From a virus: 64,000 nucleotides of DNA. The position numbers were made by a program, and so were the translations under genes. Of the stretch, positions 24,277 to 43,292 are shown in pieces. The stretch lies in the UHGV virus genome UHGV-1351569. The stretch is one strand, 5' to 3'. Every line of letters begins with the position of its first letter. Position 1 is the first letter of the stretch. The notes beneath the pieces were generated by a model that did not search any database, was not told where the DNA came from, and was given only the letters and a program-made list of their open reading frames with translations.

Positions 24277-24349
24277 TGGGAATTAGCCAAGTTGGTAAGG
24301 CACTGGATTTTGATTCCAGGATGCAAAGGTTCGAGTCCTTTATTCCCAG
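24277..24349 (+). tRNA. tRNA-Gln (anticodon UUG), CCA not encoded
   Basis: cloverleaf read by hand: acceptor TGGGAAT/ATTCCCA, anticodon stem CTGGA/TCCAG, loop TTTTGAT. Confidence 0.8.
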
Positions 24350-24350
24350 C

Positions 24351-24437
24351 GCGAGAATGGTCAAATTGGTAAAGGCACAGCACTTAAAATGCTGCGGAAT
24401 GATTTCCTTGTGGGTTCGAGTCCCACTTCTCGCACCA
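24351..24437 (+). tRNA. tRNA-Leu (anticodon UAA), type II long variable arm
   Basis: acceptor GCGAGAA/TTCTCGC, anticodon loop CTTAAAA, encoded CCA. Confidence 0.8.
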
Positions 24438-24442
24438 AATTT

Positions 24443-24516
<74 letters not shown>

Positions 24517-24526
24517 ATTTAATTTA

Positions 24527-24603
24527 CTCCGTGTAGCTCAGTTTGGTAGAGCACCTCACTTGTAATGAGGATGTCGGCGGTTCGATTCCGTCAATCAGCA
24601 CCA
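24527..24603 (+). tRNA. tRNA-like gene with Thr anticodon UGU but non-complementary acceptor stem (probable hybrid / pseudo-tRNA)
   Basis: D, anticodon and T arms fold normally; 5' acceptor strand CTCCGTG cannot pair with 3' strand AATCAGC (4 of 7 mismatches). Confidence 0.55.
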
Positions 24604-24604
24604 A

Positions 24605-24676
24605 GGCCCTGTAGCTGGAAGGTTCAAGCAAGCGACTCATAATCGCCAGATGGTGGTTCAATTCCACCCAGGGCCA
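24605..24676 (+). tRNA. tRNA-Ile (anticodon CAU, lysidine type), CCA not encoded
   Basis: acceptor GGCCCTG/CAGGGCC, T arm GGTGG-TTCAATT-CCACC, anticodon loop CTCATAA. Confidence 0.7.
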
Positions 24677-24717: not shown

Positions 24718-25383
24718 ATGTTCTATTACACTTATAAAATAACAAATAAAATTAATAATAAAATTTATATTGGTGTGCATTCTACCGAAAATTTAGATGA
24801 TGGATATATGGGTTCTGGTAAATTATTAAAAAGAGCCCAAGATAAATATGGTATAGAAAATTTTTCTAAAGAAATATTAGAGTATTTTGATGATAAAGAA
24901 TCTATGCTTGAAGCCGAGAAAAATATTGTTACAGAAGAGTTTTTAAATAGACCAGATGTGTATAATTTAAAACTTGGCGGTGAAGGTGGATGGGACCATA
25001 TAAATATTCCTGGGATGCTAAACCAGAAGAAAGACGCTAGTTTAAAAGGAGCTAAATCGTTTAAGTCACGTTTTAAAAATGATATTTTACTTCAAGAAAA
25101 ATATCGTAAACATGGTTCAAATGTATTTAAACAGCTTTGGGATAATCCTAAGTATAGAGAGAAATTTTTAAATACTAAATCTTTCTTGGGTAAGACCCAT
25201 ACTCTTGAAACTATTAATAAAATGAAAGAATCTCACGCCAGAAATAAACACCAACAGGGCGAAAAGAATTCCCAATTTGGTATGATGTGGATTCATTCAT
25301 TAGATGAAAAAGTTTCTAAACGTATTAAGAAAACTGACCCAATTCCAGAAGGATGGTTTAAAGGTCGAAAAATGAAATTTTAA
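24718..25383 (+). CDS. segB: GIY-YIG homing endonuclease SegB
   Basis: 221 aa; N-terminal YKITNKINNKIYIGVHS...GYMGSG GIY-YIG motif; located inside the tRNA cluster as T4 segB. Confidence 0.85.
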   Translation: MFYYTYKITNKINNKIYIGVHSTENLDDGYMGSGKLLKRAQDKYGIENFSKEILEYFDDKESMLEAEKNIVTEEFLNRPDVYNLKLGGEGGWDHINIPGMLNQKKDASLKGAKSFKSRFKNDILLQEKYRKHGSNVFKQLWDNPKYREKFLNTKSFLGKTHTLETINKMKESHARNKHQQGEKNSQFGMMWIHSLDEKVSKRIKKTDPIPEGWFKGRKMKF

Positions 25384-39220: not shown

Positions 39221-39742
39221 ATGTTTATTTCAAGTGAAAGCGGTTTAATTCGTGTTGAATTTAAAAATGACATCTTTCTTATTCAAGGAGATGATATTAT
39301 TAAAATGAGTTATGACGAAATCAAGAAAATTTGTAATGCTCTTGAAAATCATGGAAAGGTGAATGCTGTCATTGATATTGGCGATTTATGGGTGACACTT
39401 TATGAAGTATCCGAAGGATTTAACATTGAAGATGAAAACAACATCTTAGCTATTGATAAAAGAAGCGATTTGTTTGATGTGTTAAAAGTTTATGAACAGT
39501 CAAACGGTGGAAGAAAAGCTGCATTGATTTATCAAAAACCACATTCATGCGGAACTGCTTCAATCATTTCCAATATTGAAGGCGAAGTTGATACTTATAT
39601 GTGTGTTTTAAAAGCTGGTGGTGACCGTCATCCGGATTTTATTTCTATTCGTCAAAACAATGGAGAAATTTCATTATCAAAATCAGAAGCTGAAGCTATG
39701 ATTAAGTATTTAACAACCGTTACGCCTTCAATGAAAGGATAA
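39221..39742 (+). CDS. hypothetical protein
   Basis: 173-aa ORF, RBS GAGG. Confidence 0.5.
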   Translation: MFISSESGLIRVEFKNDIFLIQGDDIIKMSYDEIKKICNALENHGKVNAVIDIGDLWVTLYEVSEGFNIEDENNILAIDKRSDLFDVLKVYEQSNGGRKAALIYQKPHSCGTASIISNIEGEVDTYMCVLKAGGDRHPDFISIRQNNGEISLSKSEAEAMIKYLTTVTPSMKG

Positions 39743-39744
39743 TT

Positions 39745-40206
39745 ATGATTATTAATGAAAACTCTTGGCACTATAAATTATTCAAATTGTTTAACGATGA
39801 ATGGCAACGACCTAAGACACTATGCGCATATTTTTGGTCTATTGCCATTCCTACATTTTTCGTTTCTATTTTTGGATGTGCTATACTCGTAGGGCTAACA
39901 ATTATTTGTGCAGAAAGCCTACAACGTTGGCTTATTTTTGGTAGTTTATGGACTTTGCTTCCATCAGCATTTATACTTGCGATTTTGGTTGTTTTACTTA
40001 TTATCGGTTCATTTGTTATTCCTGCACATTTGCGTGAAAAATATAAAGATTATAAATGGAAAAAGGATTATGCTTTACACGTAGAAAATATTGATAGGGC
40101 GTATAAAGGTTTACCTCCTATTCAACCCAAGAAATCGATTATCGTTGAATTTTTAAAAGCTCGTAAAGCTAAAGTATGTCCTGTTATTGAATATAAGGCT
40201 GAATGA
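39745..40206 (+). CDS. predicted membrane protein
   Basis: 153 aa with three hydrophobic helices. Confidence 0.5.
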   Translation: MIINENSWHYKLFKLFNDEWQRPKTLCAYFWSIAIPTFFVSIFGCAILVGLTIICAESLQRWLIFGSLWTLLPSAFILAILVVLLIIGSFVIPAHLREKYKDYKWKKDYALHVENIDRAYKGLPPIQPKKSIIVEFLKARKAKVCPVIEYKAE

Positions 40207-41216
40207 TGAAAACAGTAATGAAAAGCTATTTTGGTAGTCATCTTTATGGAACTTCTACCCCAGAATCTGATGTAGATTTTAAAGAAATCTTTGTTCCTCC
40301 TGCTCGCGATATTCTTATCGGAAATGTCAAAGAGCATATGAGTAAAAACACTAACAACACATCATCTAAAAACACTAAAGATGATATTGACCATGAACTA
40401 TACAGTCTTAAGTATTTCTTTAAATTAGCAGCAGATGGTGAAACCGTAGCATTGGATATGCTCCACACTCCACCTGAGCTAGTGGTTAAATCTGATTTAC
40501 CTGATGTATGGAAATTTATCCAAGACAATCGTTCACGGTTTTATACAACTAACATGAAATCCTATTTAGGATATGTCCGCAAGCAAGCTTCTAAATACGG
40601 TGTCAAGGGTTCTCGTTTGGCCGCATTACGTGATGTATTGAAAGTAGTTAATCAAATCCCTGAGCAATGGGTTGATTACCAAGAAGACGGCTCCATTAAG
40701 CAGCGTCGCACTAAAGTTGAAGATATTAAGCATCGTCTTCCAGAGAACGAATTCTGTGAATGGGTATTCCATAATCATGAGAAAACAGGTCCACAAACGT
40801 TCTACACTGTGTTGGGTCGTAAATATCAAACAACGCTTTCTCTTATTGAGCTTAAGCAGTCACTGAATAAATTAGATGCTGAATACGGCGAACGTGCTCG
40901 TAAGGCTGAAGCGAATGAGGGCATCGACTGGAAAGCTCTGAGTCATGCTTGTCGTGGTGGACTCCAACTATTGGAAATTTACAAAACTGGTGACTTAGTC
41001 TATCCACTTCAAGACGCTCCATTTATTCTCGACGTGAAGTTGGGTAAACATCCATTTAAAACTGTTCAAGAGTTTTTGGAAGATGTGGTCGATCAAGTAG
41101 AAGCAGCATCCATTGAAGCTTCTAAGAACGGTATGCAGCAAAAAGTAGACATGGGTTTCTGGGATGACTTCCTTGAGAGGGTTTATCTTGAAAACCACCG
41201 AAGTTATTATAAATGA
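40203..41216 (+). CDS. nucleotidyltransferase-fold protein (pol-beta superfamily motif)
   Basis: N-terminal FGSHLYGTSTPESDVDF fits the hG[GS]x(9-13)Dh[DE]h nucleotidyltransferase signature; a further acidic residue in ...ALDMLHT. Confidence 0.5.
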   Translation: MMKTVMKSYFGSHLYGTSTPESDVDFKEIFVPPARDILIGNVKEHMSKNTNNTSSKNTKDDIDHELYSLKYFFKLAADGETVALDMLHTPPELVVKSDLPDVWKFIQDNRSRFYTTNMKSYLGYVRKQASKYGVKGSRLAALRDVLKVVNQIPEQWVDYQEDGSIKQRRTKVEDIKHRLPENEFCEWVFHNHEKTGPQTFYTVLGRKYQTTLSLIELKQSLNKLDAEYGERARKAEANEGIDWKALSHACRGGLQLLEIYKTGDLVYPLQDAPFILDVKLGKHPFKTVQEFLEDVVDQVEAASIEASKNGMQQKVDMGFWDDFLERVYLENHRSYYK

Positions 41217-41217
41217 T

Positions 41218-41242
41218 AGGGAGCCTTCGGGCTCCCTTTTTT
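41218..41242 (+). terminator. rho-independent terminator
   Basis: AGGGAGCC-ttcg-GGCTCCCT followed by T6. Confidence 0.7.
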
Positions 41243-41266
41243 ATTTCAAAATTTTTTCACAAAACG

Positions 41267-41296
41267 GTTTACAAGCATAAAGCTTTATGGTACTAT
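41267..41296 (+). promoter_or_regulatory. early promoter with A/T-rich upstream element
   Basis: TTTTTTCACAAAACGGTTTACA ... GGTACTAT. Confidence 0.6.
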
Positions 41297-41330
41297 ACAA
41301 CTATCAACTGATACGGATTTGGAGAATAAA

Positions 41331-42300
41331 ATGAAAACTGTAACTATCAATAAGGGTATCTACTTCGGTAAAGAAATCTCTGGAACTTTTGAGCTCTTAG
41401 GCGAATGGTTCCCAGATAATGCTCCGGTAGATGCACAAGGAGATGGTAAAGTTTTTGTTGAAATTGACGGTAAACGTCGCGGTGTTTGGGTTTACAAATC
41501 AGATATTTCATATGATGGTGTAAAAGTTGAAGAAGTTAAAGAATCGTATGAAGATATGAAAACCCGCATTAATAAAAGATTTAATGTTATGGGAATGATG
41601 ACGAATGGTATTATTAATGGAAATATTCGTTCATTGATTATCTCTGGTGCAGCAGGTATTGGTAAAACGTATTCTTTAGATAAAGCTTTAAATAAAGCAA
41701 ATGATATTGGATACATTGAATATAAAAGCATTAATGGTAAAATCTCTGGTATTGGTCTTTATGAGCAGCTTTGGAATAATCGTGAAGAGAATTCTGTCCT
41801 TTTGATTGATGATGTGGATGTTTTCTCTGATATGGACATTCTTAATCTTCTAAAAGCTGCTCTGGACACTGGAGAGACCCGTAAAGTCTGCTGGAGCACG
41901 GCGTCTTCTTACTTAGAAGAAAAAGGCATTGAGCGTGAGTTTGAATTTAAAGGAACGATTGTTTTTATCACAAACGTTGACATTGACCGCGAATTAGACC
42001 GTGGTACTAAACTTGCCCCCACACTTACAAGCATTAGTGTCCCGCTCGGTTTATTTGGATTTAGGCGTTCACACTAATGAAGAAATTATGGTCAGGGTTG
42101 AAGATGTTATTCTTTCAACTGACATGATGCAAAAGCGCGGTCTTTCTGATGAAGAAACTTATAAAGCATTATCATGGATGAAAGTTAATGTTAATCGTTT
42201 ACGCAATGTTTCACTGCGTACTGCTCTTTATCTTGCTGACTTTATTATGACCGACAAAAACGGTTGGGAAGAAATTGCTGAGGTTACTCTTCTGAAATAA
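41331..42300 (+). pseudogene. AAA+ ATPase with reading frame split by a +1 shift near a C5 run (42016-42020)
   Basis: Walker A SGAAGIGKT, Walker B LLIDDVD, sensor-1 FITN in frame 1 (stop at 42075-42077); frame +1 ORF from 42001 continues to 42300; removing one C joins them into about 322 aa. Confidence 0.5.
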
Positions 42301-42706: not shown

Positions 42707-42736
42707 GTTTACAAGACTGTTCCTCTGTGGTACTAT
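42707..42736 (+). promoter_or_regulatory. early promoter
   Basis: GTTTAC ... GGTACTAT then RBS GGAGG. Confidence 0.6.
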
Positions 42737-42764: not shown

Positions 42765-43292
42765 ATGAACGCTAAAGATATTTTCAACTTGGTAAATTAC
42801 AACGATGGTAAATTTAAATCTGAAGCACAAAGCAAGTTCTTTAACGACATCTCAATCGGAGGTGAAATTACTGTTGATGGAGGACAAATTTACAAATCCC
42901 GTTGGAATTGGATCGTTATTATCGATGAGATTGGTATTGTAGAAATTTACAAGAATACGAATAAAAATCGTACATTACACTGGTCTCGTGATACTAATGA
43001 ACAGTACAAAAAGGATAAAGCATCTAAATTATCTCGTGTAACTCAAGAAGATATTGAGTTCATCAAGAAAGATATTTTAATGTATGATAACTTAATTGCT
43101 GAAGAGCAAGCTGTTATTGATAAATTTGACGAGATTAAAGCTTCTCGTGAAATTCCTGATTTTATGAAAGAATCAGTAAATGAACGATACTCTCTCATTT
43201 CAGAGCGTATTGAAACTTACAAAAAGCAAAGAGCTGAACGCCAAAATACTCTTCGGAAGTTTGAAGAACGGTTAAAGACGGTACTCGCATAA
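42765..43292 (+). CDS. hypothetical protein
   Basis: 175-aa ORF. Confidence 0.5.
   Translation: MNAKDIFNLVNYNDGKFKSEAQSKFFNDISIGGEITVDGGQIYKSRWNWIVIIDEIGIVEIYKNTNKNRTLHWSRDTNEQYKKDKASKLSRVTQEDIEFIKKDILMYDNLIAEEQAVIDKFDEIKASREIPDFMKESVNERYSLISERIETYKKQRAERQNTLRKFEERLKTVLA

What the first reader, a model, noticed from the sequence alone, without database searches (positions are those of the whole stretch)
40203..42300. Nucleotidyltransferase-fold protein paired with an AAA+ ATPase in the accessory region
The 337-aa ORF has the pol-beta-type nucleotidyltransferase signature (GS x9 SDVD, then ...ALD...). The same signature is used by CCA-adding enzymes, antibiotic nucleotidyltransferases and cyclic-nucleotide synthases. 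It is followed, after a terminator and early promoter, by an AAA+ ATPase. Neither resembles a core replication or morphogenesis gene. Possible roles include tRNA 3'-end repair (several phage tRNAs here lack an encoded CCA) or interference with host nucleotide-based immune signalling.
Basis: partly seen in the sequence, partly recalled or inferred. Interest (0 to 1): 0.55.

Follow-up and report, generated by a model that had tools for sequence, protein, structure and literature searches.

The report
T4 NrdC.11 RNA-repair nucleotidyltransferase, unlinked ATPase
The 337-aa gene is the T4 phage gene nrdC.11, an already catalogued relative of RlaP enzymes that add one or two nucleotides to broken RNA ends, and the ATPase gene next to it (nrdC.10, broken by a one-base insertion here) is only a neighbour, not a partner.

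Summary
The window is a T4-like (Tequatrovirus) genome. ORF 40203-41216 is the orthologue of T4 NrdC.11. The next gene is NrdC.10.

**What holds up**
- The GS-x9-SDVD and ALD motifs, the terminator and the early-type promoter are all present.
- NrdC.11 is a pol-beta-fold nucleotidyltransferase: Pfam RlaP at E 3e-11, AF2 pLDDT 94.7, and best structural matches that are all nucleotidyltransferases.
- A 2025 preprint names T4 NrdC.11 as an RlaP-family member. It shows that Pseudomonas RlaPs add 1-2 NMPs to RNA 3'-OH ends.
- In 26 of 80 cellular loci encoding NrdC.11-like proteins I found RNA-repair genes: RtcB, RtcA, Pnkp, Hen1, a Ro-like TROVE protein, or a canonical RlaP. The canonical RlaP is usually translationally coupled.
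- The most likely function is restoring nucleotides at damaged tRNA ends before ligation. This is inferred, not tested.

**What does not hold up**
- The "pairing" with the AAA+ gene. The two genes are separate transcription units. Each occurs without the other in other phages. No cellular NrdC.11 locus has an NrdC.10 relative.
- In this window nrdC.10 carries a private +1 C insertion. It is either a sequencing error or a pseudogene.
- CCA-adding and cyclic-nucleotide roles have no support.

Verdict: known gene family, low novelty.

The parts
40203..41216 (+). nrdC.11 orthologue: 337-aa pol-beta-fold nucleotidyltransferase, long-form relative of RlaP. The databases annotate the second ATG at 40206, giving 336 aa.
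   Evidence: The start overlaps the stop of the upstream membrane ORF 39745-40206.
40233..40277 (+). hG[GS]...DxD catalytic motif (G11 S12 ... D23 V24 D25).
   Evidence: G11 and S12 are invariant; D23 and D25 are at least 90% conserved. Aligns to the GS/DYD motif of canonical RlaP.
40383..40391 (+). D61-I-D63 on beta-strand 62-68: candidate third catalytic carboxylate.
   Evidence: At least 90% conserved. Lies at the start of a strand in the AF2 model. Falls within one residue of the invariant Asp of canonical RlaP in the hhalign alignment.
40449..40457 (+).
   Evidence: D85 is at least 90% conserved. It aligns with the invariant E97 of canonical RlaP. It is helical in the model.
41218..41245 (+). 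Intrinsic terminator: AGGGAGCC-TTCG-GGCTCCCT followed by TTTTTTAT.
   Evidence: Identical in T4 and ECO4.
41268..41296 (+). Sigma-70 / T4-early-type promoter TTTACA-17-TACTAT with an upstream TG, serving nrdC.10.
   Evidence: Conserved in T4, ECO4 and Shfl2.
41331..42300 (+). nrdC.10 orthologue: AAA+ ATPase, interrupted here. As written it gives 41319/41331-42077 plus 42001-42300. Removing one C restores a 322-aa protein identical to that of phage ECO4.
   Evidence: (PHROG 1250).
41646..41669 (+). Walker A, GAAGIGKT (aa 106-113 of NrdC.10).
   Evidence: invariant G106, A107, G109, G111, K112.
42016..42020 (+). C5 run holding the private +1 insertion that frameshifts nrdC.10. The closest relatives have C4.

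Best explanation
ORF 40203-41216 is the orthologue of phage T4 NrdC.11. It is a two-domain enzyme: an N-terminal pol-beta nucleotidyltransferase core, a beta-rich insert, and a C-terminal helical domain. [quoted passage not shown]

**Proposed mechanism (inferred by homology and gene context, not shown for this protein)**
1. Two metal ions are held by D23, D25 and a third carboxylate (D61/D63, possibly D85).
2. The enzyme transfers one or two NMPs from NTPs to the 3'-OH of a broken RNA, without a template.
3. In infection this would act on tRNAs cut by host anticodon nucleases that also remove a nucleotide (RloC-type).
4. That would rebuild the loop before the phage's own kinase-phosphatase and RNA ligase reseal it.

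**The neighbouring gene**
- NrdC.10 is a separate AAA+ gene with its own promoter.
- It has a Walker A/B core and an SRS box that resembles the clamp-loader SRC motif.
- Its function is unknown.
- In this sequence it is frameshifted.
- It is not part of a two-gene system with the nucleotidyltransferase.
For: **Identity**
- 97-98% DNA identity to Tequatrovirus genomes; the two genes are annotated there as nrdC.11 and nrdC.10.

**Fold**
- Pfam RlaP above its cut-off.
- AF2 pLDDT 94.7, pTM 0.85.
- The strongest Foldseek matches (E 0.003-0.3) are nucleotidyltransferases.
- hhalign against canonical RlaP gives 94.7% probability, E 6e-8.

**Family biochemistry** (PMC12776372)
- Pseudomonas RlaPs add 1-2 NMP to RNA 3'-OH ends.
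- They prefer Mn2+ and the 5' half of a cleaved tRNA mimic.
- They partly rescue aminoacylation of a tRNA lacking one nucleotide.
- The paper places T4 NrdC.11 in PF10127 (cluster 5).

**Gene context of the NrdC.11 clade, found here**
- Among 80 cellular loci: canonical RlaP in 15 (13 directly downstream, mostly overlapping), RtcB in 6, TROVE in 5, Pnkp-ligase in 5, Hen1 in 4, RtcA in 2.
- That is 26 loci with at least one of these.
- One Nitrosospira locus reads TROVE-RtcB-RtcA-NrdC.11-like-RlaP-Hen1-...-Pnkp.

**Other support**
- Jumbo-phage RlaP distribution mirrors that of RNA ligases (PMC7824862).
- RloC excises the wobble nucleotide, a lesion proposed to defeat T4 repair (PMC2610378).

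**Independence of NrdC.10**.
Against: - No activity has been measured for NrdC.11 or any member of its long-form clade.
- Profile similarity to biochemically characterised RlaP covers only residues 8-97. The Pfam match covers residues 7-135 only.
- The remaining ~200 residues, including the beta-rich insert 155-209, have no characterised counterpart.
- In T4-like phages the gene is not next to an RNA ligase or kinase-phosphatase. None lies within the T4 region 44-100 kb.
- Two thirds of the cellular loci show no RNA-repair neighbour.
- The closest solved structure (HalB) makes oligodeoxyadenylate signals, not repaired RNA.
- I know of no deletion phenotype. T4 mutants that lost nrdC.11-mobD.3 are viable on laboratory hosts.
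Confidence: 0.6

Rival explanations
1. NrdC.11 is a phage CCA-adding or tRNA 3'-end repair enzyme. It would complete phage tRNAs that lack an encoded CCA, or restore acceptor ends attacked by host toxins.
For: - Two of the five intact tRNAs in the window (Gln and the CAT tRNA) have no encoded CCA.
- RlaP enzymes do add nucleotides to any RNA 3'-OH, including the 3' tRNA half, in vitro.
Against: - No match to the CCA-enzyme head-domain family; only RlaP and a sub-threshold NTP_transf_2 hit.
- RlaP shows little NTP specificity and stops after 1-2 additions, so it cannot write CCA.
- It prefers the break in the anticodon loop over the acceptor end.
- From my own recollection of older literature (not checked here), T4 tRNA maturation depends on the host CCA enzyme.
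Confidence: 0.1
2. NrdC.11 nucleotidylates a small molecule or a protein, as aminoglycoside nucleotidyltransferases, MNT antitoxins and DrrA/GlnE AMPylases do. One example would be inactivating a host toxin or effector.
For: Structural neighbours include kanamycin NTase, ANT(4'), LinB, AadA, the MNT antitoxin, DrrA and GlnE. The architecture of an NTase plus a helical domain resembles KNTase.
Against: - The sequence family signal is RlaP.
- Recurrent neighbours are RNA-repair genes, not HEPN toxins or resistance genes.
- RlaP did not label E. coli proteins or DNA.
Confidence: 0.1
3. NrdC.11 makes or mimics a nucleotide or oligonucleotide immune signal, for example HalB-like oligodeoxyadenylate, to interfere with host signalling defences.
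For: - RlaP can use dATP on RNA primers.
Against: - Only 16% identity to HalB.
- No hit to any PADLOC defence model.
- No CD-NTase or SMODS signature in Pfam.
- The cellular gene context is RNA repair.
Confidence: 0.05
4. NrdC.11 and NrdC.10 form a functional two-gene module, in which the AAA+ ATPase loads, remodels or regulates the nucleotidyltransferase.
For: - The genes are adjacent in Tequatrovirus and Dhakavirus, and nearly adjacent in Acinetobacter Lazarusvirus.
- One cellular RNA-repair island contains an unrelated MoxR-type AAA+.
Against: - A terminator and a promoter lie between the genes.
- Each gene occurs without the other nearby in several phage lineages.
- Their distributions across hosts differ, for example Klebsiella 286 vs 149 records and Vibrio 59 vs 121.
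- 0 of 80 cellular loci have an NrdC.10 relative, and only 1 of 80 has a MoxR AAA+.
- In this window NrdC.10 is frameshifted while NrdC.11 is intact.
Confidence: 0.05

Closest known systems
RlaP (PF10127), e.g. Pseudomonas fluorescens and P. aeruginosa RlaP (PMC12776372)
   Same: - Pol-beta NTase core with GS...DxD, a downstream conserved Asp and a conserved acidic residue (D85/E97).
- Pfam match above threshold.
- Followed by a helical C-terminal domain.
- Genes of both kinds sit in RtcB/RtcA/Pnkp/Hen1/TROVE RNA-repair islands.
- T4 NrdC.11 is already listed as a family member.
   Different: - About 90 residues longer.
- Only the first ~90-135 residues align by profile.
- Has a beta-rich insert at about 155-209.
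- In bacteria it is usually a second gene upstream of, and coupled to, a canonical RlaP rather than a substitute for it.
- T4-like phages carry only the long form.
- Its activity is untested.
Phage T4 tRNA repair pathway (Pnkp/PseT plus Rnl1) countering the anticodon nuclease PrrC
   Same: Same phage lineage and the same biological conflict. NrdC.11 would add the missing 'fill-in' step for lesions that lose a nucleotide.
   Different: - Pnkp and Rnl1 are experimentally established; NrdC.11 is not.
- The genes are not linked to nrdC.11 in the genome.
Hailong HalB and kanamycin nucleotidyltransferase (closest solved structures)
   Same: NTase fold. KNTase also has an NTase-plus-helical-domain layout. 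HalB is a template-independent polymerising NTase.
   Different: - Different substrates (dATP to oligo-dA; aminoglycosides).
- Different gene contexts.
Clamp-loader / initiator-type AAA+ ATPases (RFC, Hda, ORC), for NrdC.10
   Same: Walker A/B, sensor-1 Asn, an SRS box resembling the SRC arginine-finger motif, and a lid domain. Foldseek hits to RFC, Hda, ORC and RuvB. Weak PHROG clamp-loader hits.
   Different: - Equally good matches to NtrC, PspF, NorQ and dynein modules, so there is no clade assignment.
- Has its own ~65-aa N-terminal beta domain.
- No sequence-level PDB relative.
- T4 already has gp44/62.

Membership tests
RlaP / PF10127 | Match to the family profile above the curated threshold | tested here: met
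   43.8 bits against a cut-off of 23, E 3.3e-11. The match is partial: residues 7-135 to model positions 23-142 of 249.
RlaP / PF10127 | Pol-beta NTase catalytic residues (hG[GS], DxD, third carboxylate) | tested here: met
   G11, S12, D23, D25, D61/D63 and D85 are all invariant or at least 90% conserved. They align to the RlaP invariants.
RlaP / PF10127 | Full-length homology: NTase domain plus the RlaP C-terminal helical domain, with a terminal helix packing on the NTase domain | tested here: inconclusive
   - The AF2 model has a helical C-terminal half (helices 214-336).
- hhalign aligns only residues 8-97.
- The PfRlaP structure is not in the PDB copy searched.
RlaP / PF10127 | Genomic association with RNA ligases and RNA-repair genes | tested here: met
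   - Met for the NrdC.11 clade in cellular genomes: 26 of 80 loci.
- Not met in the window or in T4: no ligase lies near nrdC.11.
RlaP / PF10127 | Adds 1-2 NMP to RNA 3'-OH, Mn2+-dependent | not testable with these tools
   Shown only for two Pseudomonas enzymes (PMC12776372).
CCA-adding enzyme (class I/II tRNA nucleotidyltransferase) | Head-domain family signature and the neck/body/tail tRNA-binding architecture | tested here: not met
   - No Pfam hit other than RlaP and a sub-threshold NTP_transf_2 match.
CD-NTase / cGAS-like or other defence-signalling synthases | Match to CD-NTase/SMODS or any defence-system model | tested here: not met
   0 PADLOC hits and no such Pfam hit. The only link is fold-level similarity to HalB.
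AAA+ ATPase (NrdC.10) | Walker A, Walker B, sensor 1, arginine finger, and an alpha/beta core plus helical lid | tested here: met
   - GAAGIGKT, DD160-161, N215 and S237-R238-S239 are invariant.
- AF2 pLDDT 89.9.
- 178 Foldseek matches at E <= 0.001; the 50 listed are all AAA+ proteins.
- In this window the frameshift removes everything after residue ~229, including R238.
Conserved NTase + AAA+ two-gene system | Co-transcription and conserved linkage across lineages | tested here: not met
   - A terminator and a promoter lie between the genes.
- Linkage is lost in Schizotequatrovirus and Mylasvirus phages, in the Klebsiella phage Lemur_ER36 and in jumbo phages.
- Absent from 80 cellular loci.

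The most novel reading that the evidence does not exclude
The long-form NrdC.11 enzyme is not just another RlaP. It may be the specialised partner of a two-nucleotidyltransferase repair step, since in bacteria it is translationally coupled to a canonical RlaP. T4-like phages would have kept only this half as a dedicated counter-defence. It would rebuild the excised wobble nucleotide after RloC-type attack, which would explain how T4-type repair can defeat 'repair-proof' anticodon nucleases. A more remote variant: it supplies HalB-like oligonucleotides to silence a Hailong-type defence.
Probability: 0.2. Interest if true: 0.6.

Novelty: already known. Interest (0 to 1): 0.25.

Why it matters
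T4 is where RNA repair was discovered, yet the role of its RlaP-type enzyme has never been tested. If NrdC.11 restores nucleotides removed by RloC-like nucleases, it would close a known gap in the phage-host tRNA arms race. The gap is how repair copes with lesions that lose a base. The gene family, its predicted role and the T4 membership are already published, so the finding adds little beyond three points:
- It confirms the published family assignment and predicted role.
- It removes the supposed link to the AAA+ gene.
- It flags a frameshift in this genome's nrdC.10.

Tried and rejected
- **PDB sequence searches.** Searches with the protein and with profiles found nothing for NrdC.11 or NrdC.10. 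The PfRlaP crystal structure is evidently not in the copy.
- **AFDB Foldseek** was unavailable.
- **Burroughs & Aravind 2016**, the paper that named RlaP, is not held. I rely on papers that cite it.
- **NCBIfam and PADLOC** gave nothing useful.
- **A 252-aa database protein (P0126)** looked like a second copy of the frameshift allele. It turned out to be a fragment from a contig end.
- **Programmed frameshifting in nrdC.10** was considered and rejected. The insertion is absent from all 483 relatives, and the nearest relatives differ only by C4 versus C5.
- **MoxR-type AAA+ as a recurrent partner of NrdC.11-like genes** was considered. It occurs in only 1 of 80 loci.
- **Pfam scan of 150 neighbour proteins.** Apart from RlaP (7), no family recurred in more than 3. 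The second half of the neighbour set was checked only with seed searches.
Full report
**What the window is**

The 3.1 kb around the finding is 97-98% identical to many Tequatrovirus (T4-like) genomes. The window's + strand runs in the direction of T4 early transcription. In annotated relatives and in T4 itself the two genes are nrdC.11 ('nucleotidyltransferase') and nrdC.10 (hypothetical protein). In T4 the HNH homing-endonuclease gene mobD lies upstream of nrdC.11. Here two other ORFs take its place:
- a y05I-like ORF at 39221-39742;
- a membrane ORF at 39745-40206, whose stop codon overlaps the nrdC.11 start.

**Checking the observation**

The 337-aa ORF at 40203-41216 exists. It carries GS-x9-SDVD at residues 11-25 and ALD at 83-85.

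These are family features, not chance matches:
- Pfam PF10127 (RlaP) scores 43.8 bits against a cut-off of 23.
- PHROG 388 'nucleotidyltransferase' gives E 7e-137.
- A search of 1.84 billion representative proteins found 3421 clusters at E <= 1e-3. The 150 best listed mostly align end to end at about 36-58% identity.
- In an alignment of 136 of these, G11 and S12 are invariant. D23, D25, D61, D63 and D85 are at least 90% conserved.

The intergenic features are also real:
- an 8-bp GC-rich hairpin with a UUCG loop and a T-run at 41218-41237;
- a TTTACA-17-TACTAT promoter with an upstream TG at 41268-41296;
- a GGAG ribosome-binding site before the ATG at 41331.

All are conserved in T4.

The AAA+ gene is not intact. 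An extra C in the run at 42016-42020 splits it into a 252-aa ORF and a 99-aa ORF. Deleting one C restores a 322-aa protein identical to that of phage ECO4. None of 483 related phage records is identical over this stretch. The closest differ only by that one base. No IMG/VR contig holds the sequence. So this is either a homopolymer sequencing error or a private inactivating mutation.

**What NrdC.11 is**

An AlphaFold2 model built on the diverse alignment is confident (pLDDT 94.7, pTM 0.85). It shows three parts:
- an N-terminal alpha/beta core;
- a beta-rich insert at about residues 155-209;
- a helical C-terminal half.

There is no close solved structure.
- The strongest Foldseek matches, at E 0.003-0.3, are all pol-beta-fold nucleotidyltransferases: kanamycin NTase, Hailong HalB, 3c18, ANT(4'), Tam41, LinB, AadA and the MNT antitoxin.

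The fold claim is therefore confirmed.

It aligns with an invariant Glu of canonical RlaP. D61/D63 lie on a beta-strand and fall next to RlaP's invariant Asp. Either could be the third metal ligand. I could not inspect coordinates.

**What the literature already says**

A December 2025 preprint (PMC12776372) characterised two Pseudomonas RlaP enzymes, encoded between rtcB and rtcA. It reports that:
- they add one or two NMPs (or dAMP) to RNA 3'-OH ends, but not to DNA or protein;
- they prefer Mn2+;
- they favour the 3' end of the 5' half of a cleaved-tRNA mimic;
- they partly restore aminoacylation of a tRNA missing one anticodon-loop nucleotide.

The authors propose RlaP as the antidote to nucleases such as RloC that cut and then trim. 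They explicitly mark T4 NrdC.11 as a PF10127 member (cluster 5) of unknown function.

Three other papers bear on this:
- A jumbo-phage survey makes the same prediction and notes that RlaP tracks RNA ligases (PMC7824862).
- RloC's wobble excision was proposed in 2008 to defeat T4 repair (PMC2610378).
- The COG3541 nucleotidyltransferase match of nrdC.11 and the AAA match of nrdC.10 were reported in 2006 (PMC1524935).

T4 mutants that lost the nrdC.11-mobD.3 fragment are viable (PMC9825161).

**New supporting evidence from gene context**

I fetched 80 bacterial and archaeal loci encoding full-length NrdC.11-like proteins at 32-54% identity.

| Neighbouring gene | Loci (of 80) |
|---|---|
| Canonical ~250-aa RlaP | 15 |
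| RtcB | 6 |
| TROVE/Ro60-like | 5 |
| Pnkp with ligase domain | 5 |
| Hen1 | 4 |
| RtcA | 2 |
| At least one of the above | 26 |

Sources.

- The canonical RlaP lies immediately downstream in 13 of its 15 loci, mostly overlapping by a few bases.
- One Nitrosospira locus reads TROVE/vWA - RtcB - RtcA - NrdC.11-like - RlaP - Hen1 - MoxR AAA - ... - Pnkp.

This ties the long-form clade itself, and not only canonical RlaP, to RNA repair.

There are limits:
- Profile-profile similarity between the two forms covers only residues 8-97 (94.7% probability, E 6e-8).
- The long form usually accompanies a canonical RlaP rather than replacing it.
- T4-like phages carry only the long form. Canonical RlaP appears in 81 phage records, 53 of them Pseudomonas phages such as phiKZ, with the rest from eight other host genera. 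None is a Tequatrovirus.

**Is the AAA+ gene a partner?**

No. The evidence is:
- A terminator and a promoter lie between the two genes.
- NrdC.10 occurs without a nearby NrdC.11 in Vibrio phage nt-1 (between vs.1 and gene 52), Vibrio phage 2.275.O, Cronobacter phage GAP32 and Pseudomonas phage Paride.
- NrdC.11 occurs without NrdC.10 in Klebsiella phage Lemur_ER36 and Vibrio phage phi-ST2. HMM searches of those loci confirm this.
- Their host distributions differ.
- No cellular NrdC.11-like locus has an NrdC.10 relative, even at E <= 10.

NrdC.10 itself is a genuine AAA+ protein:
- It has invariant Walker A and B motifs, N215 and an SRS box.
- The AF2 model has pLDDT 89.9.
- Foldseek hits RuvB, ORC, RFC, Hda, NtrC and NorQ about equally.

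Its function stays unknown.

- *CCA repair.* Gln and the CAT tRNA do lack an encoded CCA. But NrdC.11 has no CCA-enzyme signature, and RlaP chemistry is unspecific and limited to 1-2 additions.
- *Cyclic-nucleotide interference.* There are no defence-model or CD-NTase matches. Only fold-level similarity to HalB remains.

**Verdict**

- The sequence observation is largely right.
- The nucleotidyltransferase call is right.
- The 'pair' is an accident of synteny.
- The ATPase gene is broken in this sequence.
- The most likely function is nucleotide restoration at damaged RNA ends as part of phage tRNA repair. This is already a published prediction for this very gene and remains untested.

Novelty is low. 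Interest is modest and rests on the untested T4 biology.

Noticed in passing
window 42016-42020: nrdC.10 carries a one-base C insertion (C5 instead of C4). It truncates the AAA+ protein before its arginine-finger box and lid. It is absent from all 483 related phage records and from IMG/VR. It is either a homopolymer sequencing error or a private pseudogene.
   Followed up: yes
window 24534-24592: A partial tRNA that ARAGORN does not call (Rfam 47 bits, model positions 8-63). Alignment with T4 shows the 5' part of tRNA-Pro fused in the D-arm to the 3' part of tRNA-Thr, with tRNA-Ser deleted. This looks like unequal recombination between tRNA genes.
   Followed up: partly
window 24277-24676: tRNA-Gln and the CAT-anticodon tRNA have no encoded CCA, whereas Leu, Gly and Arg do. 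tRNA-Gln differs from T4's by several changes on both sides of the anticodon stem. The CAT tRNA differs substantially from T4 tRNA-Ile.
   Followed up: partly
window 24718-25383: A 221-aa ORF lies between the CAT tRNA and tRNA-Arg, at the position of T4 segB (a GIY-YIG homing endonuclease).
   Followed up: no
window 39221-40206: The T4 homing-endonuclease gene mobD upstream of nrdC.11 is absent. A y05I-like ORF (Pfam T4_y05I_N/C) and a 153-aa membrane ORF take its place. The membrane ORF's stop overlaps the nrdC.11 start.
   Followed up: partly
L049:3558-16626; also L064, L045, L026, L062 and others: In bacteria the NrdC.11-like gene is often translationally coupled to a canonical RlaP gene directly downstream (13 of 80 loci). 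It sits inside RNA-repair islands (TROVE, RtcB, RtcA, Hen1, Pnkp, Macro). This suggests a two-nucleotidyltransferase step.
   Followed up: partly
L001:5540-5620 (Shigella phage Shfl2): Shfl2 has a 36-nt tandem duplication of the nrdC.10 promoter/leader segment. This is why its annotated nrdC.10 ORF is longer.
   Followed up: no
window 42708-42736: A second TTTACA-17-TACTAT promoter with an upstream TG, with the same hexamers as the one before nrdC.10, precedes the next ORF (42765-43292, the nrdC.8 position). Each small gene block here appears to have its own early promoter.
   Followed up: no
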